A DNA stretch of 64,000 nt from Pseudomonadota bacterium (GCA_038748065.1 JBCDJG010000008.1:35548-99547); one strand, 5' to 3'. Numbered from the stretch's first letter, positions 4,564 through 64,000 are shown. Notes: generated by a model from the sequence alone, not told the origin. Made by a program: numbers and translations.

Positions 4564-5577
4564 ATGAACACCTATCGGGCGGTCGAAGCCGAAGCCATTC
4601 GTTCTATGCTGTCTGGTGCACTGCGCAACGGTGACAGCTGGGAAAGACTGATAGAGGCAGTGGGAATCAAGCCCTCATTGCTAGGTGAAGAGGCGGCAAC
4701 GCTTGACCCCAGGCATGTTGGCCAGCTTCTGCGCAGTCTGGCGCATCATCTGCAGGATGAGAGCCTGGGGTTTCTCTCGAGGCCAACGCCGCCGGGCACG
4801 CTCGCACTGTGTTTTCATCTTACCGTGAGCTGCTCGACGCTGCGCGAAGCCATCGGCCGGGTCAGCCGCCTCATGGCCGCCATGGGCGATGAATGCGCGC
4901 TCACGCTTTCCGAGCAGGCGAGTGAGGCGAAGATAAGTCTCACCTACAGCAACCCCCACAGGCTCGAATCTGTCGGCTTCACCACCATTTTATTGCTGAT
5001 ACTGCATCGCTGGGCAGGATGGGCAACCGGCAAGACCCTGGTGCTGGACCACGTGAACTTCGCTGATCCCCGACCGTCCTACGACGCCTCGACAGAACTG
5101 GTTTTTTCCTGTCGAAATTACTGGAACAGGGCTGAGAACTCACTGGCATTCAGTCGCCACTATCTGGATTTGCCGGTAGTGAAGAGTGATGGAGACAGCC
5201 GCAATGTGCTGCCCCAGTTCGCGGATAGCCTCGTCTACAAAGCCACATCCGAGCCTAGCCTTTCCGCAAGCATTCAGCGCATTCTGCTGGCCGCTGAGTC
5301 AGCCAGTGACATCACACTGAGAGACGTCGCTGAACGACTGAACATGGGTGATCACAGCATCCGCAGGCGTCTGCGGGAAGAAGGCAACTCCTTCTCACAG
5401 ATTAAAGAGTCCGTGCGTCGGGATACCGCTATCTATCATCTCACCTGCACAGAAACGCCGGTTCAAAACATCGCCTATATTGTCGGCTTTTCGGAGCCCA
5501 GCGCCTTTAACCGAGCCTTCAAGGTGTGGACGGGTGAAACGCCTGGGCGCTATCGCGAGACACATCGGTCGACGTGA
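4564..5577 (+). CDS. AraC family transcriptional regulator
   Basis: 337 aa. The C-terminal HTH ends ..IAYIVGFSEPSAFNRAFKVWTGETPGRYR. It is divergent from the carboxyltransferase gene. Confidence 0.85.
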   Translation: MNTYRAVEAEAIRSMLSGALRNGDSWERLIEAVGIKPSLLGEEAATLDPRHVGQLLRSLAHHLQDESLGFLSRPTPPGTLALCFHLTVSCSTLREAIGRVSRLMAAMGDECALTLSEQASEAKISLTYSNPHRLESVGFTTILLLILHRWAGWATGKTLVLDHVNFADPRPSYDASTELVFSCRNYWNRAENSLAFSRHYLDLPVVKSDGDSRNVLPQFADSLVYKATSEPSLSASIQRILLAAESASDITLRDVAERLNMGDHSIRRRLREEGNSFSQIKESVRRDTAIYHLTCTETPVQNIAYIVGFSEPSAFNRAFKVWTGETPGRYRETHRST

Positions 5578-7639
5578 AACCCGTGCCCGATTCAAGGGCC
5601 CGAATCCAGATCGGCGAAGACCAGGCCCGCTCCTGTATTGTGCGCGGCAAATCCGAGCGCGGCTCAACACCTTCTCGCAATGCATCCCAGGTTGACCAGC
5701 GGCAGCTGGGATTTTCAAGAGCACGCAGGTAGTAAAAGGCATCGACTGATTCGTCGAACTGTGGATCTTGCCACAGCGCCTTCAGCTCCAGCGCGCCGTG
5801 GCCGGGCGAGAGGCCACAGTCTTCAGCGCTAACCCAGGCGCCGTTATCGGGGCAGCGATACGTTTCGGCGTCCACCTTGCCGCCGTCAGAGCAGGCCACG
5901 TCGAAGACTCTCTCAAAGGTCTCCCCATCCTTCTCCCATCCTTTGACGACCTGCAGGCGTTGGAGTGGTGCCGAGTAAGCGTCAGCCACCGCCCACACGA
6001 GGAAGCCCGGGCGCCTACCCGCTTCGGCCCTGAGCTCTGCCCCCATAGCGACGCCGCCGACGTAGGCCTTTCGCACGGCTGCGGGGTCATCCAACAACCC
6101 TTCCTGAAAATCGAGACCGGCAAAGAAACGCAGCTTGATGCGCGGGCCAGAGGTGGCGAAGGTCTCCTTGCGCCTGAAGGCGGCATAGATTGCCTCTCGC
6201 GTATTCTGTTCTGCCCATACACCGGCGAGGCCAGAGGCGCCCCAGTATTCAAAAGTGCTGCTGGCCATATAGGTACGACCGTCTACCTCCTTCACAATGT
6301 CCGGCATCACCCAGCGAGCCAGCGTCCCAATCAACCAGTTCGCCGGTACGGAACCACGGCGGTCGGGCTCGCCGTCTAACAGACCTGCCTTGGAAAAGAA
6401 CCTGTCCTCGCGCTCGGCGCCACCGGCAACGTGGGTATCGGTGGCGGCGACAAGACCGAACTTAAAGGGGTTGGTCACGCCTCTGGCATCCAGCGCCAGG
6501 CCGTTGCGCAAGGCCTCTCGTACATACGAGCCCTGCGGTGAGCTTGCCAGTTTGGTCGCTACTCGATACTCCATGAGCTCGAAGTTGGCCCACTCGTCGT
6601 TTGGCGACAGGCCAGGATGCGTATCAGAGGTCCCCTTAATCTGCGTGATCTCCACGAGCGGCTCGTTGCGCATGCGCTGCTCACCATAGTCATCGTCGAG
6701 TGGATCGCCCGCCCAGTCAGCCAGCGCAAACATCTGTCCATCGGAGCCGTTGGCGTTATGCGGTATCGCCAGGCTCTCAATGCCATTGCGCCGCAAACCA
6801 TCCATCCAGTCCCACAGGCCTTCCGGGTTACGCGAATTCAACCTTGAGAAGGGCACAGCGGGGAGTTTATCGGTGCCGCGAAAAATCACATTGCGATGCA
6901 GATTGCCGCGCGTCCATGTCGAGGATGTGTATTCATAGGCGGCGAAAGTCGTGAAACGGCCAGGGTCATAGGCTTCATCGGCAGCATCAACGGTGTCTGC
7001 CCAGGCTCGGCGCGTGATATCCATGACCATCTGCTGGTCAACTTGTCCGGCGCGTATTTGCTGTACGAGTTCACCCGAGAAAGTCCCGAAAGCTTGAGCG
7101 CGAGGCAGCAGGCTCAGCAGCCCATAATTGTCGGGGGCATTCATACCGTTCATGCTATGGCTCACGGGCAAGCCGCCGAGCTCCGAGCGCGCATCCGCCG
7201 CCTCTTTGGCAACGCCGAAAAACATCGCGTGGTCGGTCACGGCGTAAAAATCCAATGGCCGATCAAGCTGAATTTCATAGCCGGAGGGGTGCAAAATCGC
7301 CTCGCCCTGCGCATAGCGATAGGCATCCCGGGGGGTGGTCACGGTACCGAAGGTATAGGCATCAAAGCTATAGCTTGTGTGAACATGGAGATCGCCAAAG
7401 TAGGCATTTCTCTCCGGGTTGGCGGTGTCACCCGGCCGTGGCGAGCGAAACACCTGCCGCTCGAGCAGGTCAGCCTCGGGCTCCAACATGCGGTTAATGC
7501 GGTCCGCCCCGCTCAAGGTCGATGATTCGTTGCTGCTGATATCAGAAAGGGAGCCCGTGTCGGCTCCACAGGCCGCAAGAGCGAGCAGCAGACTACTGGC
7601 CAGAAAACGGAAAACGAGCACCAACGATTGCCCCCACAC
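5519..7639 (-). CDS. DUF3604 family secreted lipoprotein (PHP-like metal-dependent fold)
   Basis: 706 aa. It has a lipobox (LLLALAAC), a GDLHVHTSYSFDA metal motif and ERAWSSPIW near the C-terminus. Its 3' end overlaps the convergent AraC gene by 59 nt. Confidence 0.75.
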   Translation of the reverse strand: MWGQSLVLVFRFLASSLLLALAACGADTGSLSDISSNESSTLSGADRINRMLEPEADLLERQVFRSPRPGDTANPERNAYFGDLHVHTSYSFDAYTFGTVTTPRDAYRYAQGEAILHPSGYEIQLDRPLDFYAVTDHAMFFGVAKEAADARSELGGLPVSHSMNGMNAPDNYGLLSLLPRAQAFGTFSGELVQQIRAGQVDQQMVMDITRRAWADTVDAADEAYDPGRFTTFAAYEYTSSTWTRGNLHRNVIFRGTDKLPAVPFSRLNSRNPEGLWDWMDGLRRNGIESLAIPHNANGSDGQMFALADWAGDPLDDDYGEQRMRNEPLVEITQIKGTSDTHPGLSPNDEWANFELMEYRVATKLASSPQGSYVREALRNGLALDARGVTNPFKFGLVAATDTHVAGGAEREDRFFSKAGLLDGEPDRRGSVPANWLIGTLARWVMPDIVKEVDGRTYMASSTFEYWGASGLAGVWAEQNTREAIYAAFRRKETFATSGPRIKLRFFAGLDFQEGLLDDPAAVRKAYVGGVAMGAELRAEAGRRPGFLVWAVADAYSAPLQRLQVVKGWEKDGETFERVFDVACSDGGKVDAETYRCPDNGAWVSAEDCGLSPGHGALELKALWQDPQFDESVDAFYYLRALENPSCRWSTWDALREGVEPRSDLPRTIQERAWSSPIWIRALESGTGFTSTDVSRDSAQAFHPSTP

Positions 7640-7728: not shown

Positions 7729-8532
7729 TCAGGGAACCCATGCGGGCTTGCGCTTCTCCATAAAAGCCTGAAAACCTTCCTGTCCTTCCTCACTTACCAG
7801 GCAATCGGCGAAGGCTCTTGCCGCCTCCTGGACAAAGGTATCGGAGATTCCGGCGCGACCTATGTCGAGTATGTGCTTACTTGCGGCGATCGCGCTGGGG
7901 GAACAGCTGAGCGTATTCTGGACAAGCCTGGCAATTTCATCATCGAGGGCACCAGCGTCTTGTGCAAGGCGATCGGCCATACCCATGTCAAAGGCCTCCT
8001 CGCCATTTATCATGGGCGCCAGCAGCATGAGCTGCCTGGCCCGAGCGAAGCCTATCCGCTGAATGACGTAAGGTGCAATCTGCGCAGCTACCAGGCCAAC
8101 CCGAATCTCTGACAGGCTATATCTGGCATCGCGCGTCGTCACCAGCACGTCACAGGCACAGGCAAGGCCAAAGCCGCCCGCCATGGCCGCCCCCTCGACG
8201 GCAGCGATCGTCAGCTGCGGTAGCTGTTGAACCTCTGTCAGGAAACGCGCGCCATCGCGGCTGAAGGACATGGCCAATTCCCTCGCGTCCTGTCCCATTT
8301 CGCCCATCGAGCGAAACGCCTTGAGATCACCGCCGGCACAGAAAACGCCCCCGCGACCACGCAGCACAACCACACGGACCTCGGCATCCTGTTTGGCCTG
8401 ACGCATTGCCGTGCAAAGTTCCTCACCCATGCGTTGCGTAAGACTATTACGCGCCTCAGGCCGATTGAGCCAGATCGTCAGGCATGGACCCTGCTGTTCA
8501 AATTCAAGAGTGGAATAGGCCGCGTAGCTCAT
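7729..8532 (-). CDS. Enoyl-CoA hydratase/isomerase family protein (methylglutaconyl-/isohexenylglutaconyl-CoA hydratase-like)
   Basis: 267 aa crotonase fold (LNRPEARNSL, VVVLRGRGGVFCAGGDLK). The ATGA start overlaps the stop of the upstream biotin carboxylase gene. Confidence 0.9.
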   Translation of the reverse strand: MSYAAYSTLEFEQQGPCLTIWLNRPEARNSLTQRMGEELCTAMRQAKQDAEVRVVVLRGRGGVFCAGGDLKAFRSMGEMGQDARELAMSFSRDGARFLTEVQQLPQLTIAAVEGAAMAGGFGLACACDVLVTTRDARYSLSEIRVGLVAAQIAPYVIQRIGFARARQLMLLAPMINGEEAFDMGMADRLAQDAGALDDEIARLVQNTLSCSPSAIAASKHILDIGRAGISDTFVQEAARAFADCLVSEEGQEGFQAFMEKRKPAWVP

Positions 8533-10532
8533 ACGTCGCTCTCTTGTGCATTTGAATCTTCGACCAATATGAGCAGGTCGCCCGCGGCTATCTGTGCACC
8601 CGCTCGAGCATTGAGCTGTGTGACCACACCGTCAATGGTGGCGACAAGCACATGCTCCATTTTCATGGCTTCAATTACGGCGAGGGTTTCACCCGCTGCC
8701 ACGCTTTGGCCGACCTCAACCAGGACGTCGACAACACTACCGTGCATCGGCGCGTGGACACCACCATCAGAGAATCCCTCTGCACTGGCCTCAACATTGG
8801 CCAGCTCATTGCGAAACACAGCTGCCGTGCCATCGAGCTGAACATTCACCTCACCGCTATCGCCAAACGCGTAAAAACAGCTCGCTCGAACGTCGCCGCG
8901 CTGGAAGCGCAGGGCTTCTCCATCGTCCTTAATTATTTGGTATGGCTCCGTCGAGCCATCGGAACCTACGGCATAGCGATGCGCCCCCAGCGCTTTGACC
9001 TGCAGGCGCAGTTCTGCCTCTCCTTGCGCGAAAGCGTATTCCCCGCGCAGGTCCTGGCTGCTGTGCCAGCCCTCCAGCGCTGAATCGGGGCCTATTCTGC
9101 CTGCGGTAACAGCCGAACGATGCAGCAGGATGGCACCGAGGGCAGGTAATACCGGGCTGAAGTCGGCTCTCTCGAAAGAGCCGCTGCCGTAGTTGCGCGT
9201 GATAAATGCGGTGGTGACCGGCCCCTCGATGAAGTCCGGCCGGTCGAGAACATCGAGCAGGAACTCACGGTTATTGGTCACGCCAAAAAGACAGGTACTC
9301 TGTAGCGCGTTCCTCAAGCGACGCCGCGCTATGTCTCGATCATCGCCCCAGGCAATAATTTTGGCGATCATCGGGTCATAGAAAGGTGTCACTGACTGGC
9401 CCGAATTCAGCCCGTGGTCCACGCGGATTCCATCGCCCCCGGGGACGCGCCAATGATCGGCACGCCCCGAAGCAGGCAGAAAGCCGTTTTCAGTATCCTC
9501 GGCATAAAGCCGAACCTCTATGGCGTGACCCCGCATATCGACGTCTGACTGTTTCAGCGGAAGCGGGTAACCCTGCGCCACATGAAACTGCAGTGACACC
9601 AGGTCGGTACCCGTCACCATCTCTGTAACCGGGTGTTCGACCTGCAGCCGCGTGTTCATTTCAAGAAAATAGAAGTTGCGGTCCTCGTCGACCAAGAACT
9701 CGACCGTACCAGCGCCAACGTAGTTGATGCTCTTGGCGGCATCCACCGCGGCCTGGCCCATGCGAGCGCGCAGTTCCGGCGTCATCAACGGACTGGGGGC
9801 CTCCTCAACAACCTTTTGGTGACGCCGCTGTACCGAGCAATCTCGCTCACCCAGGTGAATGACATTACCGTGACTGTCACCGAAGACTTGAATCTCAATA
9901 TGCCGCGGATTAAGCACTGCTTTTTCCAGGATGAGTTCCCCTGAACCAAATGCACTTTCCGCTTCAGAGCGCGCTGACTGAATCGCCCCCCGCAACTCCT
10001 CGGGGGCCCGAACCAGCCGCATACCTCGACCGCCACCACCTGCCGTGGCCTTCACCATAATGGGTACACCAATCTGGCCACCCTGCTCTATCAAGGTGTC
10101 GTCGGACTGGTCGAGTCCCTCGTAGCCAGGAATACAGGGCACCCTCGCCGCGATCATTCGCCGCTTGGATTCGCCCTTATTGCCCATCACGCGGATTGCG
10201 TCAGCGCTTGGCCCGATAAATTGAATACCCGCCGCCTCGCAGGCAAGTGCGAAGTCGGGGTTTTCTGACAAAAAACCGTAGCCAGGGTGAACCGCCTGGG
10301 CGCCGGTCACCCTCGCCGCCGATAGAATTTTTTCGATATCGAGGTAGGAATCTTTAGCGGGAGCCGCGCCGATGTTCACGGCCTGATCGGCCAACTCGAC
10401 GTGCGGCGCATCGGCATCCGCGTCGGAGAAGACCGCGATAGTTCGATAACCCTGCTGCCTCGCTGAGCGAATCACCCTGAGCGCTATCTCGCCGCGGTTA
10501 GCGACGAGGATACTGTCAAACTGCGGCATCAA
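8529..10532 (-). CDS. Acyl-CoA carboxylase alpha subunit (biotin carboxylase + biotin carboxyl carrier domain)
   Basis: 667 aa. It has the ATP-grasp biotin carboxylase N-terminus (ILVANRGEIALRVIRSA), a C-terminal lipoyl/biotinyl domain and the EAMKME biotinylation motif. Confidence 0.95.
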   Translation of the reverse strand: MMPQFDSILVANRGEIALRVIRSARQQGYRTIAVFSDADADAPHVELADQAVNIGAAPAKDSYLDIEKILSAARVTGAQAVHPGYGFLSENPDFALACEAAGIQFIGPSADAIRVMGNKGESKRRMIAARVPCIPGYEGLDQSDDTLIEQGGQIGVPIMVKATAGGGGRGMRLVRAPEELRGAIQSARSEAESAFGSGELILEKAVLNPRHIEIQVFGDSHGNVIHLGERDCSVQRRHQKVVEEAPSPLMTPELRARMGQAAVDAAKSINYVGAGTVEFLVDEDRNFYFLEMNTRLQVEHPVTEMVTGTDLVSLQFHVAQGYPLPLKQSDVDMRGHAIEVRLYAEDTENGFLPASGRADHWRVPGGDGIRVDHGLNSGQSVTPFYDPMIAKIIAWGDDRDIARRRLRNALQSTCLFGVTNNREFLLDVLDRPDFIEGPVTTAFITRNYGSGSFERADFSPVLPALGAILLHRSAVTAGRIGPDSALEGWHSSQDLRGEYAFAQGEAELRLQVKALGAHRYAVGSDGSTEPYQIIKDDGEALRFQRGDVRASCFYAFGDSGEVNVQLDGTAAVFRNELANVEASAEGFSDGGVHAPMHGSVVDVLVEVGQSVAAGETLAVIEAMKMEHVLVATIDGVVTQLNARAGAQIAAGDLLILVEDSNAQESDV

Positions 10533-34319: not shown

Positions 34320-35153
34320 CTAGACAGCAGGGCTAAGCCCGTGATCCACATAACCCAGTGCGGCGAGCCGCTCGAGCTGCGCCGAACTAAAATCGTCCTG
34401 CCAGGGTTTTTGCCGATAGCGACCCACTGATGACGGCGATTTAACCAAGCCCGCGAGGCGATCCAGCTCACTCTCACCTGCCGGAATTGCCAAAAATCCC
34501 AGTATACGAGCGATTTCCTGCCGGGGTTCTTCACAAAGATCCTCAAAGCGAATCACCAACATGCGGCCGTTCATTCGCTCGGCGGCAACCTCGCGGGCAC
34601 GTTCGTTCGCGCGCAGCCAATATTCCAACATGACTTGCGGCGCCACCGAATCATCTTCCACGTAACGCAGCTCAACGCCCAGGCTCGGGCCCCAGTTCTT
34701 GACCTGGTTCTGATTGCCTGAGTAGGCCATGTCCATGCCGTTACGCACGAGGTGCAGGTACTGGAAACCCGGGAAAAAATCAGCTAACTCTGCAAGCCAG
34801 TGAAAGGTGCCGGGCACCTTCCAGCCAGCGCGGCCAGCAAGGCCCAGGTTTTCGCGCCGGGCGAGCAACAGGCCTTCAAAGGCATGAAGAATATTAGGTA
34901 ACAGCGTGTCTCGCCCGTGCTTTGCCAACATCGTCGGTGACAGCAGCTTTTGCCAGGGCGGCCATTCGTAGGCATCACCCGCTTCATTCAATGGGCTGGC
35001 CATGGCGACACCGGCCTGGGAGAGAATTTGCAGAAGCAGCCGGGTACCGCTGCCGCCTACGGCGCCGACGCCAATAGGATCAGGAAGGAGGCTGGCCGAC
35101 GTGCCGCGGTAACTGCAATCGCCATCCAGAACTGCTTGATAAGCCGGTAGCAT
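34320..35153 (-). CDS. Sulfotransferase family protein
   Basis: 277 aa with a PAPS 5'-phosphosulfate-binding loop-like motif (GVGAVGGSGTRLL) and a later R..S region (HLVRNGMDMAYS). Confidence 0.7.
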   Translation of the reverse strand: MLPAYQAVLDGDCSYRGTSASLLPDPIGVGAVGGSGTRLLLQILSQAGVAMASPLNEAGDAYEWPPWQKLLSPTMLAKHGRDTLLPNILHAFEGLLLARRENLGLAGRAGWKVPGTFHWLAELADFFPGFQYLHLVRNGMDMAYSGNQNQVKNWGPSLGVELRYVEDDSVAPQVMLEYWLRANERAREVAAERMNGRMLVIRFEDLCEEPRQEIARILGFLAIPAGESELDRLAGLVKSPSSVGRYRQKPWQDDFSSAQLERLAALGYVDHGLSPAV

Positions 35154-35285
35154 GTGTAAGACAACAGAGCAGGACCTGGTGAAGTGCGTCGCATTTTACT
35201 CGCTCAGGGTATTGGCTACCACCATGACAGCTGCCGGCCGCGGGCGCGAGGCAGGCTGACATCTGCGCGCGAGCAGCCCCGTCGC

Positions 35286-35504
35286 CTAATCGACCTCTAT
35301 AAGACGGATCACCCGGTTTGGACAGTAATCGACAGCGTCTTGAACTTTTTCCCGCAGTGCATCGCCCGGCCTGGCCGTCTTGACTTTAACCTTCGGATAG
35401 CCGGTGTCCATCTCCACGACCTCGAACACCTCGGGGCACTCTTCGGTGCAGACACCGTGACCCTGACACAGCATCATATCGACCTTGATGCGATACCCAG
35501 CCAT
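35286..35504 (-). CDS. Small [3Fe-4S]/[4Fe-4S] ferredoxin (P450 redox partner type)
   Basis: 72 aa with CQGHGVCTEECPEVF plus a distal CP. It begins 9 nt downstream of the P450 stop. Confidence 0.85.
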   Translation of the reverse strand: MAGYRIKVDMMLCQGHGVCTEECPEVFEVVEMDTGYPKVKVKTARPGDALREKVQDAVDYCPNRVIRLIEVD

Positions 35505-35513
35505 ATTGGACTC

Positions 35514-36890
35514 CTAGGCGCTCCGCTTTCGATACTTGAGCACGCAGGGCTCCGCCGGCCGCAGGATCAGTGAAGGCATGATCTCGGCGTAGGTCTCGGA
35601 TGGCCCGGCGAGTTCAAACTCATACTGACTGAGCAAGACCGAGAAAATCACCTTGACCTGCAGCATCGCAAAGGCATTGCCGACGCACTTGCGCTGGCCG
35701 CCGCCGAAGGGGATGAGTGCGAAGGGGTTTTCCGGGTTCGGGCGATAGGGGTCGAAGGTCTCGGCATCGGGGAACTCGGCATCCAGGCGGTGCGCAACGT
35801 AAGGGCAAAGCATGACATTTTTGCCCTTCTCAATGATGTGGCCCTTATATTCGAAGTCCTCAATAACTCGCCGTGTGATGGTATTAAGCGGCGGATGTAC
35901 GCGTAGGGTCTCGCGGATAAAGCCGTCCATCAGCTTCATACGGCGCAGGGATTTCACATCCAGATCGCCCTCCGCCTGCTCATGCGCCTGCTCAATTTCA
36001 GCAACCAGTTCAGCGGCCAACCCAGGATTGCGCGCCAGTTCTACCAGAACCCAGGCCGCCGTGTTGGCGCTGGTGTGGTGACCCGCGAACATAAACCACA
36101 CAATCATGCCGGCGATCTCGCGCGTTAAAAGATGCCTGCCGTCAGCATAGGTCGCATCCATGTACACCTGGAGGAGATCGGGGTGCACTTCCTTATTTGA
36201 ACGACGTCGCTCTACCCGTTCGGAGATCAACTCTTCGAGTCGAGCGCGCGCTGCGTCGCGCGCCTCGTACGCCGCCTTCTGTGCATTGGGGTCCTGCAGG
36301 CCCGCTGCGTCCGCCGCCGCGCCCAGCGTGTGATAGAGGTCCGAAAACTCTTCTGTCAAGGAATAGCGAAAATCAGAGCCCAGCAGGCAGTGTGTCGACG
36401 TCTTGATAGTAAGATCGGTAAAGCCCTCATAGAAATCCATCTCACCGGCTTCATCCCAGTGCGACACCCAGTCGCGCACCTCGCGCGCGATAATTGGCGC
36501 ATAGTGATTCATCTTTTCGCTGGACAGTCCGCGAGAGTGCATGCGCAGCTGCTGCCGCTCGACATCCAAGGGCGCGCCGTACTGAATGCCCTTACCAAAG
36601 ATGGGCACCATGAACTGATAGGCCTCACGCGCGCAGACCTTCTCATCGTCAACACGGAAAACGGCCTCGTGAGCTTCTGGCCCCACCATGAGCACCGTAT
36701 TGATGCCCCCCATGTCGAACTCCGCCAGCTCTCCACATTCCTTGTACGCTCTCTGCAGGAAATACGCCGGGTGCTCGCAGAACTCGGGGAAATGCCCACC
36801 CGCTTCAGGGGCCAGAGCTCCGCTCACAAAGGGCAGGCCACCGGCGCGGACTGCCGTTGCGTCTTTAGTACTCATATCGGTAGCACTCAT
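35514..36890 (-). CDS. Cytochrome P450, CYP51 (sterol 14-alpha-demethylase)-like
   Basis: 458 aa. It has the heme loop FGGGQRKCVGNAF, the I-helix MFAGHHTSANT and the ExxR motif in RETLRVHPP. From memory, the C-terminal MLQVKVIFSVLLSQYEFELA closely resembles M. tuberculosis CYP51. Confidence 0.85.
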   Translation of the reverse strand: MSATDMSTKDATAVRAGGLPFVSGALAPEAGGHFPEFCEHPAYFLQRAYKECGELAEFDMGGINTVLMVGPEAHEAVFRVDDEKVCAREAYQFMVPIFGKGIQYGAPLDVERQQLRMHSRGLSSEKMNHYAPIIAREVRDWVSHWDEAGEMDFYEGFTDLTIKTSTHCLLGSDFRYSLTEEFSDLYHTLGAAADAAGLQDPNAQKAAYEARDAARARLEELISERVERRRSNKEVHPDLLQVYMDATYADGRHLLTREIAGMIVWFMFAGHHTSANTAAWVLVELARNPGLAAELVAEIEQAHEQAEGDLDVKSLRRMKLMDGFIRETLRVHPPLNTITRRVIEDFEYKGHIIEKGKNVMLCPYVAHRLDAEFPDAETFDPYRPNPENPFALIPFGGGQRKCVGNAFAMLQVKVIFSVLLSQYEFELAGPSETYAEIMPSLILRPAEPCVLKYRKRSA

Positions 36891-36947
36891 GCGGGACTCC
36901 CGGGCTCAAGGCCAAGCAAAAACATTTCACTACAAATCTTTTAGCAG

Positions 36948-36985
36948 TATAATTTCGAGCCTGACCTCACAGCAAGGAAGGTCAG
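36948..36985 (+). promoter_or_regulatory. Candidate TetR-gene promoter: TATAAT hexamer (36948-36953) followed by a 7-bp inverted repeat CTGACCT-N11-AGGTCAG (36961-36985) spanning the RBS
   Basis: Read directly from the sequence. It lies in the 96-bp divergent P450/TetR intergenic region. Confidence 0.3.
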
Positions 36986-36986
36986 T

Positions 36987-37676
36987 ATGAACACTGCCAT
37001 GGTACAAATAAATCTGCTGTGGCGCTCCGTTAACCGTCAGGGTACCCGCGGCATGCCTGTTAAACCGGCTCCTTCTACTTCAGATATAGATGCTCTCGGG
37101 CGTCAGGCTGCCAAGAGCAAAGCCACCCAGGATGCCATTCTCCGCGCGGTCATTGGGCTAATCAATGAGGAGGGCTTCGCCGCCGCCAGTTCCACGCGCA
37201 TTGCTAAACGCGCAGGTGTGACCTGGGGCGCGGTACAGCACCATTTCGGCAGTAAGGAAGACATTCTCGAGGAGGTGCTACAACTCTCACACAGCAAGTT
37301 TCACGAAACGCTGAGCGCCAAGCGCTTTACCACAGGTAGCGCAGACGGCCGCGTATCGAAGTATATCGATGCGGCCTGGCAGCACTACCAGGGCGAGGAA
37401 TACATGGCGACCCTGGAAATCCTGCTCGCCACCCGGGGCCACGGCAAGGATTACCACGATCTTTCCATTAGCAGCAGCCGGGCTCAGCATCTGGCCCTCG
37501 GCCGTCGCATTTTCCACGACAGCAAAGCCTCAGACAAAAAGCTGGGAGAAGCCATTTATATCGTGCACTGCATGCTGACGGGCATCCTGGTTGAAATGGC
37601 GCTCGAGCCTGACAGCTTTGGCGCTGGGGTCTTCATTAAACACACCAAGCGTGTCGTGTCAGAGCTGCTGTACTGA
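36987..37676 (+). CDS. TetR family transcriptional regulator
   Basis: 229 aa with the HTH region ILRAVIGLINEEGFAAASSTRIAKRAGVTWGAVQHHFGSKEDIL. AAGGAAGG lies upstream of the ATG. Confidence 0.85.
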   Translation: MNTAMVQINLLWRSVNRQGTRGMPVKPAPSTSDIDALGRQAAKSKATQDAILRAVIGLINEEGFAAASSTRIAKRAGVTWGAVQHHFGSKEDILEEVLQLSHSKFHETLSAKRFTTGSADGRVSKYIDAAWQHYQGEEYMATLEILLATRGHGKDYHDLSISSSRAQHLALGRRIFHDSKASDKKLGEAIYIVHCMLTGILVEMALEPDSFGAGVFIKHTKRVVSELLY

Positions 37677-37680
37677 AACT

Positions 37681-39666
37681 ATGAGCCATCGTCGAACTTT
37701 CATATACCCTCTTGCTTTCATCTTCGCCCTGACGCTTGCCGCCTGCAGCGCTGACTCAGGCCTCGACTACAGTGGGCCAACAGCGGAGTGGGCACACTTT
37801 GGTGGCGACCAGGGCGGGCAGCGCTACTCACCGCTAAATCAGATAAGGGCTGAGAACGTCGGAAAGCTGGAGATCGCCTGGGTATACAACACGGGGGACG
37901 TATCCGCCGGCGCCGAAACACACGGCCCGACAGCCTTTCAGGCAACGCCCCTGGTGGTAGACGACAGCATGTACGTCTGCACCCCTTTCAGTCGGGTCAT
38001 CGCACTGCACCCGGAAACTGGCGAAGAGCAATGGACCTTCGATCCCAAGGCTGACCTGAGCGGCATCTACACCCCCACCTGCCGCGGCGTTGCCTATTGG
38101 CGAGGCTCTGGCGAAGAGCCCTGCAGCCGAAGAATCCTGACTACCACGCTGGACGCGCGGCTGATTGCACTCGACGCCGGCAGCGGCGAAGTCTGCCGCG
38201 GCTTCGGCACGAACGGTGAAGTCAACCTGCTGAACAACCTCGGCGATATCCGCCTAGCAGAGTACTATCCGACCTCTGCTCCTTTAGTCATCAACGATCT
38301 CGTGGTGACAGGCGCTTTCGTGATGGATGGCCAGCGCGTAGATGCACCGCCCGGCGTGGTCCGCGCCTTTGACGTTAGGACGGGGGAACTGCGCTGGGCC
38401 TTTGACCCTGTGCCGCCTGATATGGACCCGGTGACTGCTGAGGAGGCCATTGCCGGCGCTGATTTTACTCGAGCAACACCTAACACCTGGGGCACGATTT
38501 CTGCCGACGCAGAACGCGGCATCGTCTTCCTCCCCACCGGCGGTTCCCAGCCGGATCACTACGGTGGTAGCGAGCGCGGCAATATGGACACACTCGGCAC
38601 CTCCGTGATCGCGCTGGAAGCCCGCAGCGGCGAACGCATCTGGCACTTTCAAACGGTGCACCATGACCTCTGGGACTGGGACGTAGCCGCGCAGCCGGTG
38701 ACTTTTGAGCACAAGGGTGCCACGCCGGGACTGATTGCGGCGACCAAAATGGGCCATATCTTTTTGTTGCACCGGGAAACCGGCCAGCCCTTGTTCCCAG
38801 TGGAAGAGCGTCCGGTACCAGCAACACGGGTTCCCGGCGAGTATTCCGCGGCGACACAACCCTTCCCGACTCTGCCCGCACCACTTCATCCCGCCGCATT
38901 GACTGAAGACGACATCTGGGGCGTCTTTCCCGGGGACCGGGACGCCTGCCTGGAACGCTTCCGGGAGTTTAACTACCAGGGCATCTTTACGCCGCCTCCG
39001 CTCAACGGTACCGCATTACTCTGGCCCGGTATCGGTGGCGGCGTGAACTGGGGCTCAGTCTCGGTCAATCCAGACACTAATATCATGCTGGTTAACTCCA
39101 TGCGTGTGCCCTACACCGTTAAGCTCATCCCTCGAGAGAATGCGGACACCCTCGACGGCAGCGACCTGGTCGGCGCGAATCCGCAGGAGGGCACAGACTA
39201 CGTAGTGATCCGCGGCAGCTTCCTCTCTCCCAACAATACGCCCTGCACGGCTCCGCCCTGGGGCGTGCTCACGGCCATCGACCTCGATAGCGGGGCGACT
39301 CTCTGGGAGCAGCCATTGGGCAACCTGGAGACACTGTCGCCTCTCGGCGTGGGTCGCTTTCTGGATTGGGGCACGCCCAACACCGGCGGCACACTGCAAA
39401 CTGCGAGTGGACTGGTATTCGTTGCCGCTACCCTGGATGGTTATATTCGCGCCTTCGATACCGTGAGTGGCGAGCGGCTCTGGCAGCAAAAGCTGCCCGC
39501 ACCCGCTCAGGCCACGCCGATCACTTATCGCCTGGGCAAAGACAGCAAGCAATACATCGCCATCGCCGCTGGCGGGCATGGCCCCTTGGCCTACGCCGCC
39601 CTGGGCCCTGAGCGGCTTGGCGAACTGCTGGGCGATGCCATTGTCGCTTTCAAGCTGCCGGATTAG
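37681..39666 (+). CDS. PQQ-dependent dehydrogenase (glucose/quinate/shikimate-type beta-propeller), lipoprotein
   Basis: The ATG at 37681 gives MSHRRTFIYPLAFIFALTLAAC (lipobox). Repeated W-containing propeller motifs are present (AWVYNTGD, EQWTFDP, LRWAFDP, RIWHFQT, TLWEQPL, RLWQQKL). Confidence 0.85.
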   Translation: MSHRRTFIYPLAFIFALTLAACSADSGLDYSGPTAEWAHFGGDQGGQRYSPLNQIRAENVGKLEIAWVYNTGDVSAGAETHGPTAFQATPLVVDDSMYVCTPFSRVIALHPETGEEQWTFDPKADLSGIYTPTCRGVAYWRGSGEEPCSRRILTTTLDARLIALDAGSGEVCRGFGTNGEVNLLNNLGDIRLAEYYPTSAPLVINDLVVTGAFVMDGQRVDAPPGVVRAFDVRTGELRWAFDPVPPDMDPVTAEEAIAGADFTRATPNTWGTISADAERGIVFLPTGGSQPDHYGGSERGNMDTLGTSVIALEARSGERIWHFQTVHHDLWDWDVAAQPVTFEHKGATPGLIAATKMGHIFLLHRETGQPLFPVEERPVPATRVPGEYSAATQPFPTLPAPLHPAALTEDDIWGVFPGDRDACLERFREFNYQGIFTPPPLNGTALLWPGIGGGVNWGSVSVNPDTNIMLVNSMRVPYTVKLIPRENADTLDGSDLVGANPQEGTDYVVIRGSFLSPNNTPCTAPPWGVLTAIDLDSGATLWEQPLGNLETLSPLGVGRFLDWGTPNTGGTLQTASGLVFVAATLDGYIRAFDTVSGERLWQQKLPAPAQATPITYRLGKDSKQYIAIAAGGHGPLAYAALGPERLGELLGDAIVAFKLPD

Positions 39667-62429: not shown

Positions 62430-63545
62430 ATGAACCTGACTGAGAATCTCGCCCACATCGCACAGCAAAACGCCGGTAAGGCCGAAGCCCTTCCCTTTCA
62501 CTACTATCACGACCCCCGGATGCTGGAGGCAGAGCAACAGCACGTGTTCAGCGACGACTGGGTCTTCTGCTGCACGGAAGCTGATATACCGAGGGCGGGG
62601 GATTACCTCACGCTAACTATCGCCAATGAGCCCATCGCGGTGCTGCGCGGCCAGGATGGCTCGCTACGCGCGCTATCCAACGTCTGCCGCCACCGAGGTG
62701 CTGTATTGCTAACAGGCGCCGGCAACACCGATCGGCTGCGCTGCCCTTTCCACGCCTGGACCTACGCCGATGATGGGCAGCTAATGGCGATCCCCTTCGA
62801 TGTGGACAAGCGCGTCAGCAAGGAGGAACACTGCCTGCCCAGTTTCAACATAGAGAGCTGGCTGGGTCTTGTATTTGTTAGCCTAAATCCTGCAGCGCCA
62901 CCGCCGGCAGAGCGCTTTGGCGGCCTTGAGCAGTACTACGCGCGCTATCAGATCGAGACCTTCAGCCACGCCTCCCCGATCGAGGTACAACACTGGCAGG
63001 CTAACTGGAAAGTGGTGCTGGCCAACTTCGTTGAGGGTTACCACTTTTTCGCCGTCCATGAGAACAGCGTCGAACCAGCGGCGCCCACGCGGGACTGCTT
63101 CTACGTTGACGGCGGCAAAGACTGGTCTGTCACCGGCGGCAAACAGCTTGGCGATCCCGAATCGCTGGCGGACTGGCTATTAGGCAAGGCCGCAGAGTCA
63201 CAATTCCTGTCAATCTGCATGCCCCCCAACTTCGTCTGCAACCTGTACGAGGGCTACTTAACCTGGGCTCGGGTTCTGCCAGCTGGGCCGGATAGCTGTG
63301 AGGTTGTCACCGGCACAATAAGCGCTGTGGCCTTTGAGGAGAGTCGCGCGGAAAGAGCCATTTACGAAAAGATCTTCGACGAGGACCGCGCGATCTGCGA
63401 ACGCGTGCAACGGGGTGTCCGCAGCAGCCATTCTCGCGGCGGCGTGCTGGTGGACATGGAGCGCGCAGTAGTGGACTTCCACCAGTACTGGGCGCATCAG
63501 CTCAGTAAGCCAAAAGCATCTGGCAGGCTGCAGACAGGGCTATGA
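62430..63545 (+). CDS. Rieske [2Fe-2S] aromatic ring-hydroxylating oxygenase, alpha subunit
   Basis: 371 aa with the Rieske motif CRHRG..(18)..CPFHAW and a mononuclear iron region (EGYHFFAVHE). Confidence 0.9.
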   Translation: MNLTENLAHIAQQNAGKAEALPFHYYHDPRMLEAEQQHVFSDDWVFCCTEADIPRAGDYLTLTIANEPIAVLRGQDGSLRALSNVCRHRGAVLLTGAGNTDRLRCPFHAWTYADDGQLMAIPFDVDKRVSKEEHCLPSFNIESWLGLVFVSLNPAAPPPAERFGGLEQYYARYQIETFSHASPIEVQHWQANWKVVLANFVEGYHFFAVHENSVEPAAPTRDCFYVDGGKDWSVTGGKQLGDPESLADWLLGKAAESQFLSICMPPNFVCNLYEGYLTWARVLPAGPDSCEVVTGTISAVAFEESRAERAIYEKIFDEDRAICERVQRGVRSSHSRGGVLVDMERAVVDFHQYWAHQLSKPKASGRLQTGL

Positions 63546-63839
63546 CTAAAGCGCTATCTGAGCGGTCGAGTACCCCGCCATGACATCACCGCACACCGGA
63601 TAGATCACCTCCATGTGCGCGCCGTGGCTGGAGTAGGCGAGGAAATCCTCGGGAGAATCGAAGGTCGCATGCACCGCGATGCCCGCGTTGCCCTCCAGCA
63701 GCGAGAGGTCGAGCCCAGCACGGAAGTCGCGAATTTCCGCTATATGGTCGGGCAAGGTTTGAAAGGCGGCAAGGACCGCCGCTTTTTGCGCATCCGTTGT
63801 GCCTGCCTTGAAATCGATAAGGGTTACGTGCTGGATCAT
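63546..63839 (-). CDS. Dabb (stress-responsive A/B barrel) domain protein
   Basis: 97 aa. The MIQHVTLIDFKAGTT start is typical of Dabb proteins. Its stop abuts the Rieske stop with no gap. Confidence 0.85.
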   Translation of the reverse strand: MIQHVTLIDFKAGTTDAQKAAVLAAFQTLPDHIAEIRDFRAGLDLSLLEGNAGIAVHATFDSPEDFLAYSSHGAHMEVIYPVCGDVMAGYSTAQIAL

Positions 63840-64000
63840 GCGGCGTCCACCTTGTTCTTTTTCGTGGCCACTTCCGCTTCATGCTCGGCGATTGCCTGGT
63901 TGATACCACCCATGTAGGCATCCATAAAGCGATCTGCGTTACCGGAGGCCCACTCGATAGATGCCGTGCGATTGGCGTTACTGTGCTGAAATCGCGGCAT
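63836..64000 (-). CDS. 3' end of an unidentified gene running off the window
   Basis: The minus-strand frame is open from the window edge to a TGA that overlaps the Dabb ATG (ATGA). The translation ends ..INQAIAEHEAEVATKKNKVDAA. Confidence 0.35.
   Translation of the reverse strand: MPRFQHSNANRTASIEWASGNADRFMDAYMGGINQAIAEHEAEVATKKNKVDAA

What the first reader, a model, noticed from the sequence alone, without database searches (positions are those of the whole stretch)
34320..37676. CYP51-like P450 + ferredoxin + sulfotransferase string with divergent TetR in a proteobacterial context
The P450 shows CYP51 hallmarks: the AGHHTS I-helix, the FGGGQRKCVG heme loop, and a C-terminal block MLQVKVIFSVLLSQYEFELA that is very close to my memory of M. 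tuberculosis CYP51. As in the mycobacterial Rv0764c/Rv0763c pair, it is followed immediately by a small ferredoxin gene. A sulfotransferase follows 132 nt downstream on the same strand, and a TetR regulator is divergent. No sterol, hopanoid or squalene cyclase genes are present in the window. The substrate is therefore open, and a hydroxylated or demethylated and then sulfated lipid or terpenoid is one plausible product.
Basis: partly seen in the sequence, partly recalled or inferred. Interest (0 to 1): 0.6.

Follow-up and report, generated by a model that had tools for sequence, protein, structure and literature searches.

The report
Repressor-controlled CYP51 and ferredoxin pair
A marine bacterium that cannot make sterols carries a repressor-controlled sterol-demethylase-type P450 with its own ferredoxin, most likely for processing sterols taken up from outside; the neighbouring sulfotransferase gene is next to it only in this one genome.

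Summary
The four genes exist exactly as described. The P450 (35514-36890, minus strand) is a real but divergent CYP51-family member. Its best solved relatives are Methylococcus and Mycobacterium CYP51, and a tree places it inside the CYP51 radiation. The next gene encodes a [3Fe-4S] ferredoxin of the Rv0763c type.

The pair is conserved in 18 of 18 related Halieaceae loci and is under strong purifying selection. A TetR palindromic operator controls it. That operator occurs only twice in the 5.1 Mb genome; the second copy lies in front of a luciferase-like monooxygenase/Dabb operon that sits next to cyp51 in relatives.

No squalene or oxidosqualene cyclase was found in this genome or in 121 Halieaceae genomes. 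All 26 CYP51-positive genomes carry KshA-type steroid oxygenases. All 26 also carry a divergent homologue of the recently described bacterial 8,14-sterol reductase, with its catalytic residues retained.

The sulfotransferase is absent from all 18 related loci, has no conserved neighbours anywhere, and is closest in fold to tyrosylprotein sulfotransferases. The "string" is therefore not a conserved unit.

Halieaceae CYP51s are already listed in the literature. This is a new member of a known ferredoxin-linked CYP51 module, probably acting on exogenous 14-methyl sterols.

The parts
35514..36890 (-). cyp51: divergent CYP51-family P450 (458 aa) of a marine gammaproteobacterial subclade
   Evidence: PDB hits 7jj1/6mcw (M. 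capsulatus CYP51) E 1e-104 and 1e9x (Mtb CYP51) E 9e-89. It is 41.7% identical to the M. capsulatus enzyme. Tree clade support is 99/100 inside the CYP51 ingroup. dN/dS is 0.06-0.08.
35286..35504 (-). Cognate [3Fe-4S] ferredoxin (72 aa), motif C13-x2-H16-x2-C19...C61-P62, translationally coupled to cyp51
   Evidence: Pfam Fer4_15 and Fer4_13. Best PDB hits are 8AMP (Mtb Fdx Rv0763c) and the ferredoxin domain of 6mcw CYP51fx. The motif is as defined in PMC9868604. It is adjacent to cyp51 in 18 of 18 loci.
36919..36942 (.). Putative TetR operator, palindrome AAAACATTT-N6-AAATCTTTT, directly downstream of the cyp51 -10 box
   Evidence: It lies in a conserved block in 11 aligned intergenic regions. 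It is unique in the window (expected 0.01). There are only two perfect matches in the 5.1 Mb genome. It recurs upstream of cyp51 and of the luciferase-like monooxygenase gene in relatives.
36946..36975 (-). Putative cyp51 promoter: -35 TTGCTG (36970-36975) and -10 TATACT (36946-36951), 18-nt spacer
   Evidence: CTTG and TATA(A/C)T columns are conserved across 11 loci. Sequence read. Function is inferred.
36987..37676 (+). Divergent TetR-family repressor. The real start is possibly M23 at 37053, because orthologues align only from about residue 30.
   Evidence: TetR_N E 2e-12. It is 62-74% identical in 16 of 18 loci and adjacent and divergent in 10.
34320..35153 (-). Strain-specific neighbour: PAPS-type sulfotransferase (277 aa). 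Not part of the conserved module.
   Evidence: Pfam Sulfotransfer_3 and Sulfotransfer_1. Absent from 18 of 18 loci. No conserved context. AlphaFold model pLDDT 95; closest fold is TPST1/2 at TM 0.55-0.64.
37730..39666 (+). PQQ-dependent dehydrogenase, a frequent neighbour of the module. The start is approximate.
   Evidence: PF01011 E 2e-221. TIGR03074 family, 696 bits, below its cut-off. Present within 8 kb of cyp51 in 14 of 18 loci.
63546..63839 (-). Dabb (stress-responsive A/B-barrel) protein, 97 aa, second gene of the co-regulated operon
   Evidence: It is 62-71% identical to the Dabb gene that follows the ferredoxin gene in relatives.
63836..64000 (-). 3' end of a luciferase-like monooxygenase gene (399 aa; it runs out of the window to C8:100582). 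Its promoter carries the second operator copy at C8:100598-100621, about 1.05 kb beyond the window end.
   Evidence: It is 81-82% identical to the monooxygenase next to cyp51-fdx in relatives. Operator match. ORFs.

Best explanation
This is a TetR-repressed two-gene operon. It encodes a divergent CYP51-family sterol 14alpha-demethylase-type P450 and its dedicated [3Fe-4S] ferredoxin. It belongs to the bacterial lineage of ferredoxin-fused or ferredoxin-linked CYP51s.

The host is a Halieaceae bacterium that has no squalene or oxidosqualene cyclase but carries many steroid-catabolism-type oxygenases. The enzyme therefore most likely acts on sterols taken up from the environment, such as lanosterol-, cycloartenol- or other 14alpha-methyl sterols of algae, sponges or methanotrophs.

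Proposed sequence of events:
1. A sterol-like ligand releases TetR from the palindrome that overlaps the cyp51 promoter.
2. The ferredoxin passes electrons to the P450, which removes the 14alpha-methyl group and leaves an 8,14-diene.
3. [quoted passage not shown]
4. The product enters ring degradation by KstD- and KshA-type enzymes.

A luciferase-like monooxygenase/Dabb operon carries the same operator and belongs to the same regulon.

Shown: family membership, gene linkage, conservation, operator duplication, co-occurrence, and absence of sterol synthesis. Inferred: the substrate, the 14-demethylase chemistry, TetR binding, and the catabolic purpose.

The sulfotransferase is a neighbour in this genome only. 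It is not part of the module.
For: Family membership:
- All top PDB matches are CYP51.
- The ML tree separates the 69 ingroup rows from four other P450s (support 89/95). The query sits in a 99/100 clade beside the Methylococcaceae, actinobacterial and eukaryotic CYP51 clades.
- The I-helix AGHHTS, the B'-helix Tyr and the beta1-4 Arg are kept.

Ferredoxin and linkage:
- The ferredoxin is of the Rv0763c type.
- cyp51-fdx is adjacent in 18 of 18 loci.
- dN/dS is 0.06-0.08 with dS saturated.

No sterol synthesis:
- No squalene cyclase in the genome and none in 121 Halieaceae genomes.
- Only weak partial squalene-epoxidase hits, 37 bits at best, against 281 bits for a real one.

Steroid context:
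- Six KshA_C oxygenases in the genome.
- KshA is present in 26 of 26 CYP51-positive genomes against 61 of 95 others (p = 5e-5).
- A KstD-family flavoprotein lies next to the module in relatives (E 6e-182 to NF009478).
- A Halieaceae isolate grows on cholesterol (PMC5790920).

Reductase partner:
- The 175-aa NTF2 protein matches the 8,14-Bsr family by hhalign at 99.1% probability, E 8e-19.
- It keeps Y37, Y43, Y80, D133 and D136, and has Y78->F, a change shown to be neutral.
- It occurs in 26 of 26 CYP51-positive genomes against 30 of 95 others (p = 3e-11).
- It is directly adjacent to cyp51 in G009 and G083.
- Lee et al. 2026 (PMC13277303) show that ferredoxin-linked CYP51s co-evolve with 8,14-Bsr.

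Operator.
Against: - No biochemical data exist for any member of this subclade.
- The heme-bulge His, which Lamb et al. 2021 call invariant in all CYP51s, is Arg in all 51 sequences that are at least 62% identical to the query.
- The B'C-loop signature reads G(V/I)QYGAP instead of GVVFDA. Substrate or chemistry may therefore have shifted.
- The tree backbone is unresolved.
- The NTF2 homologue also occurs in 30 genomes without CYP51, and in this genome it is unlinked.
- A complete 9,10-seco pathway in this genome was not verified. The KstD and KshA matches are below NCBIfam equivalog cut-offs.
- Co-occurrence tests are not corrected for phylogeny.
Confidence: 0.6

Rival explanations
1. In this strain cyp51-fdx and the sulfotransferase form one transcription unit. 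It oxidises or demethylates a lipid or sterol and then sulfates it, giving a sterol or terpenoid sulfate.
For: The sulfotransferase is on the same strand, 132 nt downstream. No terminator-like site or separate promoter is predicted in the gap, and the gap RNA is no more structured than shuffled sequence (z = +1.15). The sulfotransferase model is confident, and the GGSGTR and RxGxDxxYS motifs are conserved. A bacterial cholesterol sulfotransferase exists as precedent: BT_0416 (PMC9417993).
Against: The adjacency is unique to this genome: 0 of 18 loci have it. The closest homologue is on another contig from that genome's cyp51. There are no conserved neighbours and no P450 next to any homologue. 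There is no co-occurrence (p = 0.37). The fold is closest to tyrosylprotein sulfotransferases and CurM-type domains (TM 0.55-0.64), with steroid sulfotransferases more distant (TM about 0.4). The gene sits exactly at a synteny breakpoint.
Confidence: 0.1
2. The subclade has left sterol chemistry. It is a CYP51-derived P450 that oxidises another hydrophobic substrate, such as a non-steroidal terpenoid or hydrocarbon. The luciferase-like monooxygenase, PQQ dehydrogenase and aldehyde dehydrogenase carry the oxidation further.
For: A residue reported as invariant in CYP51 (the heme-bulge His) is replaced, and the B'C substrate-contact loop is altered throughout the clade. Neighbours in relatives include a PQQ dehydrogenase, an aldehyde dehydrogenase, a luciferase-like monooxygenase, and thiolase, ChsH2-like and acyl-CoA synthetase genes. 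The window also carries an acyl-CoA carboxylase, thiolase and acyl-CoA synthetase catabolic block.
Against: The I-helix His-Thr-Ser proton-relay signature specific to CYP51 is intact. Co-occurrence and occasional adjacency with an 8,14-sterol-reductase homologue that keeps its catalytic residues point to an 8,14-diene product. A KstD-family enzyme is a conserved neighbour. CYP51-positive genomes are nested inside KshA-positive genomes. Arg at the heme-bulge position is the usual residue in other P450s, so it need not change function (general P450 knowledge).
Confidence: 0.22
3. It is an evolutionary leftover of lost sterol biosynthesis with no current role.
For: Lamb et al. 2021 propose that CYP51 genes in non-sterol producers are retained from sterol-making ancestors. 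The distribution in the family is patchy: 26 of 121 genomes.
Against: The ORFs are intact and 72-81% identical across many genera. dN/dS is below 0.1 with saturated dS. The promoter and operator are conserved and the operator is duplicated. No Halieaceae genome has a cyclase, so there is no recent sterol-making ancestor.
Confidence: 0.04

Closest known systems
Ferredoxin-linked bacterial CYP51 with 8,14-sterol reductase (8,14-Bsr): Methylococcus capsulatus CYP51fx and the M. tuberculosis Rv0764c/Rv0763c/Bsr cluster (Lee, Giner & Welander 2026, PMC13277303; Lamb et al. 2021, PMC7947880)
   Same: A CYP51-family P450 with a CXXHXXC...CP [3Fe-4S] ferredoxin immediately downstream. An NTF2-fold Bsr homologue with conserved pocket residues is present in the genome. 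The host does not make sterols and has steroid-catabolic genes, as in mycobacteria. A TetR regulator is nearby.
   Different: Identity is only 38-42%, in a separate, well-supported marine gammaproteobacterial clade. The heme-bulge His is replaced by Arg and the B'C loop is altered. The Bsr partner is a divergent paralogue family (about 29% identity), unlinked here. A second operator places a luciferase-like monooxygenase/Dabb operon in the regulon. No activity has been tested.
Halieaceae CYP51 entries in Table 1 of Lamb et al. 2021 (Parahaliea mediterranea, Halioglobus japonicus)
   Same: The Parahaliea mediterranea protein (locus L017, protein P0176) is 78-79% identical to this P450. It has the same F/Y marker residues as listed there.
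   Different: That paper only lists the sequences. It reports no context, partner, regulation or distribution analysis.
Bacteroides thetaiotaomicron cholesterol sulfotransferase BT_0416 (Le et al. 2022, PMC9417993)
   Same: It is a PAPS-dependent bacterial sulfotransferase and a precedent for bacterial sterol sulfation.
   Different: Homology to BT_0416 itself was not tested. No PDB chain matches the sulfotransferase by sequence. BT_0416 lies beside PAPS-synthesis genes, whereas the sulfotransferase here has no conserved neighbours. Its fold is closest to tyrosylprotein sulfotransferases.

Membership tests
CYP51 (sterol 14alpha-demethylase P450 family) | At least 40% identity to a named family member (P450 nomenclature rule) | tested here: met
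   41.7% to M. capsulatus CYP51 (PDB 7jj1) and 37.6% to M. tuberculosis CYP51. This is borderline.
CYP51 (sterol 14alpha-demethylase P450 family) | Closest characterised proteins are CYP51s, well separated from other P450 families | tested here: met
   The top 56 PDB sequences are all CYP51-type, E 1e-104 to 1e-43 (one, 9wat, is deposited only as cytochrome P450). The first other family, CYP46A1, appears at 1.5e-27.
CYP51 (sterol 14alpha-demethylase P450 family) | Phylogenetic position inside the clade spanned by verified bacterial and eukaryotic CYP51s | tested here: inconclusive
   It lies inside the 69-row ingroup against 4 outgroup P450s (89/95). However, the backbone among the major clades (query clade, Methylococcaceae, Actinomycetota, eukaryotes) is an unresolved polytomy.
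CYP51 (sterol 14alpha-demethylase P450 family) | I-helix signature -AGHHTS- with the family-specific His of the proton relay | tested here: met
   FMFAGHHTSANT is present in the query and in 39 of 40 close orthologues.
CYP51 (sterol 14alpha-demethylase P450 family) | B' helix / B'C loop signature YxxF/L/IxxPxFGxxVxF/YD | tested here: inconclusive
   The query reads AYQFMVPIFGKGIQYGAP. Y, F, P, FG and Y are kept. The signature's final Asp is Gly, and Gln stands where reference CYP51s have a second Val, throughout the clade. The signature as written here is from memory.
CYP51 (sterol 14alpha-demethylase P450 family) | Three heme-propionate ligands said to be invariant in all CYP51s: B'-helix Tyr, beta1-4 Arg, heme-bulge His (Lamb et al. 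2021) | tested here: not met
   Tyr (Y91) and Arg (R340) are present. The His is Arg (FGGGQRKCVG) in the query and in all 51 sequences at least 62% identical to it.
CYP51 (sterol 14alpha-demethylase P450 family) | Catalyses three-step removal of the sterol 14alpha-methyl group | not testable with these tools
   This needs enzyme assays or heterologous expression.
Ferredoxin-linked CYP51 / 8,14-Bsr module (Lee et al. 2026) | Cognate ferredoxin fused to or adjacent to CYP51 | tested here: met
   The ferredoxin gene starts 9 nt downstream. It is adjacent in 18 of 18 loci.
Ferredoxin-linked CYP51 / 8,14-Bsr module (Lee et al. 2026) | An 8,14-Bsr (NTF2-fold) homologue co-occurs and keeps Y37, Y43, Y78, Y80, D133 and D136 | tested here: met
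   The C17 175-aa protein matches by hhalign at 99.1% probability, E 8e-19. All six positions are conserved, or changed Y78->F, which is neutral. It is in 26 of 26 CYP51-positive genomes and adjacent to cyp51 in G009 and G083. It is not adjacent in this genome.
[3Fe-4S] P450 ferredoxins of the Mtb Fdx (Rv0763c) type | CXXHXXC(X)nCP cluster motif; about 70 aa single-cluster protein | tested here: met
   The motif is C13QGH16GVC19...C61P62. Best PDB hit is 8AMP at E 1e-7. The motif definition is in PMC9868604.
De novo bacterial sterol biosynthesis cluster | Oxidosqualene cyclase and squalene epoxidase in the genome | tested here: not met
   PF13243 gives 0 matches in the genome and no genuine cyclase in 121 family genomes. 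PF08491 gives only partial hits of 37 bits or less.
PAPS-dependent sulfotransferase acting in a CYP51 operon | Sulfotransferase fold and PAPS-binding motifs | tested here: met
   Pfam matches are above cut-off. GGSGTR and R137-x-G-x-D-M-A-Y-S are invariant or nearly invariant in 36 homologues. Model pLDDT is 95, and all top fold hits are sulfotransferases.
PAPS-dependent sulfotransferase acting in a CYP51 operon | Conserved linkage or co-occurrence with cyp51-fdx | tested here: not met
   It is in 0 of 18 loci. There are no shared neighbours. Fisher p = 0.37.
TetR-family repressor with palindromic operator | N-terminal TetR HTH; inverted-repeat site overlapping the regulated promoter | tested here: met
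   TetR_N E 2e-12. A conserved 9-N6-9 palindrome lies next to the -10 box. It has two genome-wide copies and recurs in relatives. Binding itself is untested.

The most novel reading that the evidence does not exclude
The Halieaceae-type CYP51 subclade forms an undescribed catabolic "sterol-nucleus editing" regulon. Its parts are the P450 (heme-bulge Arg, altered B'C loop), its own paralogous 8,14-reductase-like NTF2 partner, and a TetR regulon that also covers a luciferase-like monooxygenase, a Dabb protein and, in relatives, a KstD-family flavoprotein. The regulon would let marine steroid degraders remove the 14alpha-methyl group of algal, sponge or methanotroph protosterols, so that these otherwise blocked molecules can enter the 9,10-seco pathway. 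In this one strain a TPST-like sulfotransferase may have been captured into the operon.
Probability: 0.3. Interest if true: 0.55.

Novelty: new member of a known kind. Interest (0 to 1): 0.33.

Why it matters
More than a thousand bacteria carry CYP51 without making sterols. The role of these "orphan" enzymes, including the M. tuberculosis one, is a long-standing open question.

This locus adds a clean comparative case. Within one family, CYP51-positive genomes are nested inside genomes with the reductase-like partner, and those are nested inside genomes with KshA. No genome has a cyclase. A small, sharply defined TetR regulon controls the genes. Together these argue for processing of imported 14-methyl sterols rather than a relic function.

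Cultured relatives are available for testing: Parahaliea mediterranea DSM 21924, P. maris and Sediminihaliea albiluteola. If the reading is confirmed, it bears on how 4-methyl and 14-methyl sterol biomarkers turn over in the sea.

The sulfated-lipid idea, which gave the finding its original interest, is not supported.

Tried and rejected
- **Sulfotransferase linkage.** I looked for the gene in 18 orthologous loci, in 121 family genomes, and in the contigs of three metagenomic homologues. No linkage appeared. A sequence search against PDB found nothing. The fold search gave tyrosylprotein sulfotransferase-like neighbours, not steroid sulfotransferases.
- **Co-transcription by RNA reads.** Only promoter and terminator scans and an RNA fold of the gap could be done, and they were uninformative.
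- **Wide alignment for locus search.** The first 14-sequence alignment was too diverse to give search patterns. A 6-sequence alignment worked.
- **First tree.** In the quick 133-row tree, one outgroup P450 was drawn into a clade related to PDB 9wat, so rooting was unreliable. I rebuilt it with 73 rows and four outgroups. The backbone is still unresolved.
- **Foreign origin of the sulfotransferase.** Its GC (0.589) and GC3 (0.633) are like its neighbours', so composition gives no sign of recent foreign origin.
- **KstR identity of the TetR.** There is only a weak NCBIfam hit (E 0.002), so I did not claim it.
- **Relic hypothesis.** Rejected on dN/dS.
- **Operator in paralogue loci.** The operator is absent from L123-L126, so it is specific to the orthologue group.

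Full report
**Observation.**
- A 458-aa P450 at 35514-36890(-).
- A 72-aa ferredoxin at 35286-35504(-).
- A 277-aa sulfotransferase at 34320-35153(-).
- A divergent 229-aa TetR at 36987-37676(+).

All four pass Pfam cut-offs: p450 8e-65, Fer4_15 3e-12, Sulfotransfer_3 3e-14 and TetR_N 2e-12. The ferredoxin ATG lies 9 nt after the P450 stop, and a GGAG overlaps that stop. The sulfotransferase ATG lies 132 nt after the ferredoxin stop. The quoted motifs are present. The C-terminal block matches M. tuberculosis CYP51 at 13 of 20 positions.

**What the P450 is.** Among solved structures the best matches are M. capsulatus CYP51fx (7jj1/6mcw, E 1e-104) and mycobacterial CYP51 (7tef and 1e9x, about 1e-89). 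Eukaryotic CYP51s follow. The first non-CYP51 family appears only at 1.5e-27. Identity is 41.7% to the Methylococcus enzyme and 37.6% to the M. tuberculosis enzyme.

I built a careful maximum-likelihood tree of 73 proteins. The set comprised named genome loci, 50%-identity cluster representatives, the two PDB sequences transcribed from tool output, and four non-CYP51 P450s. The tree separates the outgroup from a 69-row ingroup (support 89/95). The query falls in a 99/100 clade of marine gammaproteobacterial sequences. Neighbouring clades are Methylococcaceae (96/96), Actinomycetota plus Spirochaetota including Mtb CYP51 (100/94), myxobacteria, and eukaryotes (100/100). The eukaryote clade was labelled through PDB look-ups. 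The backbone between these clades is unresolved.

Public sources already name many close homologues "sterol 14-demethylase". Lamb et al. 2021 list Halieaceae CYP51s, including Parahaliea mediterranea, whose protein is 78-79% identical to this one.

**How it departs from the family.** The I-helix AGHHTS, the B'-helix Tyr and the beta1-4 Arg are kept. The heme-bulge His is not. Lamb et al. state that this His is invariant in all CYP51s. It is Arg in the query and in all 51 sequences at least 62% identical to it. The B'C loop reads G(V/I)QYGAP instead of GVVFDA. Arg is the usual residue at this position in other P450s (general knowledge), so heme binding is not in doubt. The subclade is nevertheless a divergent one.

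**Organism and sterol synthesis.** Related loci are all from Halieaceae: Haliea, Parahaliea, Sediminihaliea and Litorirhabdus. The 5.1 Mb genome has no squalene or oxidosqualene cyclase. Its squalene-epoxidase hits are only weak and partial, 37 bits at best, against 281 bits for a true enzyme next to Methylococcaceae cyp51. None of 121 Halieaceae species genomes has a genuine cyclase. De novo sterol or hopanoid synthesis is therefore excluded for the family.

**Conservation and context.**
- In 18 orthologous loci, cyp51 is 67-81% identical and the ferredoxin gene is always adjacent.
- The TetR is present in 16 of the 18 loci and is adjacent and divergent in 10.
- A PQQ dehydrogenase lies within 8 kb in 14.
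- The sulfotransferase is in none.
- dN is 0.13-0.19 with saturated dS, giving dN/dS of about 0.06-0.08 where it can be computed.

Between the ferredoxin gene and the PQQ dehydrogenase gene, relatives carry three further genes:
- a Dabb protein;
- a luciferase-like monooxygenase;
- a flavoprotein that best matches 3-ketosteroid delta-1-dehydrogenase models (E 6e-182, below the equivalog cut-off).

Other relatives embed the pair among thiolase-like, ChsH2-like OB-fold and acyl-CoA synthetase genes. In this genome the Dabb and monooxygenase orthologues (62-82% identical) lie 26 kb away, at the right-hand end of the window.

**Regulation.** Aligning 11 TetR|cyp51 intergenic regions shows three conserved elements: a -35-like CTTG, a TATA(A/C)T box, and immediately after it the palindrome AAAAnATTT-N6-AAATnTTTT. 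In the window this palindrome is at 36919-36942. It is unique there, with 0.01 matches expected by chance.

In the whole genome the degenerate pattern has exactly two perfect matches. One is this site. The other is C8:100598-100621, between a TAGAAT box and the ribosome-binding site of the monooxygenase-Dabb operon. Relatives show the same two positions. This defines a small TetR regulon made up of cyp51-fdx and monooxygenase-Dabb. Ligand-gated expression of this kind is typical of catabolic or detoxifying functions.

**The missing third component.** Lee, Giner and Welander (2026) showed two things. First, ferredoxin-fused or ferredoxin-linked CYP51s form their own clade. Second, that clade co-evolves with an NTF2-fold 8,14-sterol reductase (8,14-Bsr), which converts the 8,14-diene product of CYP51.

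In my loci a roughly 200-aa family sits directly after cyp51fx in 30 Methylococcaceae and actinobacterial loci. Its invariant residues fall at the paper's numbering: Y43, Y78, Y80, D133 and D136.

This genome has one distant homologue, 175 aa, at C17:88678-89205. Profile-profile comparison gives 99.1% probability, E 8e-19. Y37, Y43, Y80, D133 and D136 are conserved. Y78 is replaced by Phe, a change the paper found neutral.

Distribution across 121 Halieaceae genomes:

| Protein | Genomes with it |
|---|---|
| CYP51 | 26 |
| NTF2 reductase-like protein | 56, including all 26 with CYP51 |
| KshA-type Rieske oxygenase | 87, including all 56 with the NTF2 protein |

Fisher tests give p = 3e-11 (CYP51 against NTF2), 5e-5 (CYP51 against KshA) and 3e-12 (NTF2 against KshA). 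They are not corrected for phylogeny.

In genomes G009 and G083 the NTF2 gene is directly adjacent and divergent to a cyp51 of the query's clade. G083 also has a second cyp51 paralogue, 48% identical, paired with a canonical Bsr that is 41-43% identical to the Methylococcaceae and actinobacterial proteins. The two CYP51 lineages in the family therefore each have their own reductase-type partner.

**Steroid catabolism.** The genome has six strong KshA_C matches and KstD-family flavoproteins. It also has an Rv3520c-family F420/LLM oxidoreductase above its cut-off. Holert et al. 2018 predicted steroid degradation in Halieaceae and isolated a cholesterol-degrading member. I did not verify a complete 9,10-seco pathway here.

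**The sulfotransferase.**
- Its family is a small set of about 270-aa marine proteins.
- The closest genome homologue (65% identical, G015) is on a different contig from that genome's cyp51.
- Five genomic and three metagenomic contexts share no neighbours with each other or with this locus, and none has a P450.
- Co-occurrence with CYP51 is null (p = 0.37).
- The gene sits at the synteny breakpoint next to the ferredoxin gene.
- A confident model (pLDDT 95) is closest to tyrosylprotein sulfotransferases and the CurM and olefin-synthase sulfotransferase domains (TM 0.55-0.64). Cytosolic steroid sulfotransferases are more distant, at about TM 0.4.
- No terminator or promoter is predicted in the 132-nt gap, so read-through in this strain is possible.

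**Verdict.** The CYP51/ferredoxin/TetR reading is right, and it can now be tied to the published ferredoxin-linked CYP51 / 8,14-Bsr module. The most likely function is inducible processing of exogenous 14-methyl sterols in a steroid-degrading, non-sterol-making marine bacterium.

The locus is a new, divergent member of a known kind. What is new here:
- the clade-wide loss of a supposedly invariant His;
- the paralogous reductase partner;
- the nested distribution across the family;
- the two-operator regulon.

Earlier notes from this scan on other genomes reached similar general ideas about TetR-gated, ferredoxin-linked CYP51s. I treated them as leads only.

Noticed in passing
G000 contig C8:100598-100621 (about 1.05 kb beyond the window's right end); the genes reach into the window at 63546-64000: A second perfect copy of the cyp51 operator palindrome lies between a TAGAAT box and the ribosome-binding site of a luciferase-like monooxygenase/Dabb operon. 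That operon sits next to cyp51-fdx in relatives but is 26 kb away in this genome.
   Followed up: yes
G000 contig C17:88678-89205 (outside the window): [quoted passage not shown] It occurs in all CYP51-positive Halieaceae genomes and also in 30 genomes without CYP51, so it may have a wider steroid role.
   Followed up: yes
L123 (G083:C1:3450000-3468000): One Halieaceae genome carries two cyp51 paralogues about 6 kb apart. One is paired with a canonical 8,14-Bsr and a TetR. The other is paired with the divergent NTF2 type.
   Followed up: partly
window 2805-24693: A catabolic block holds acyl-CoA carboxylase subunits (carboxyltransferase 2805-4424, biotin carboxylase 8529-10532), DUF3604 (5519-7639), a TonB receptor, a thiolase, an MFS transporter, a molybdopterin oxidoreductase, an acyl-CoA synthetase and a 3-hydroxyacyl-CoA dehydrogenase. 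A DUF3604 gene also lies directly after cyp51-fdx in Parahaliea maris (L010).
   Followed up: no
window 62430-63545 (+): A Rieske ring-hydroxylating oxygenase alpha subunit (371 aa) lies next to the Dabb/monooxygenase operon. Its best NCBIfam match is the glycine betaine monooxygenase type, far below cut-off.
   Followed up: no
window 36961-36985: A perfect 7-bp inverted repeat, CTGACCT-N11-AGGTCAG, brackets the ribosome-binding site just before the annotated TetR start. Orthologues align only from about residue 30, so the true TetR start may be M23 at 37053.
   Followed up: no
window 37730-39666 (+): A PQQ-dependent dehydrogenase (glucose/quinate/shikimate-like family, below cut-off) stays within 8 kb of cyp51 in 14 of 18 genomes, although its position relative to cyp51 keeps changing.
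   Followed up: partly
G000 contigs C51, C44, C32, C5, C22, C19: There are six KshA_C-type Rieske oxygenase paralogues in one genome. The one on C22 lies in a cluster whose orthologues flank cyp51 in L019 and L023.
   Followed up: partly
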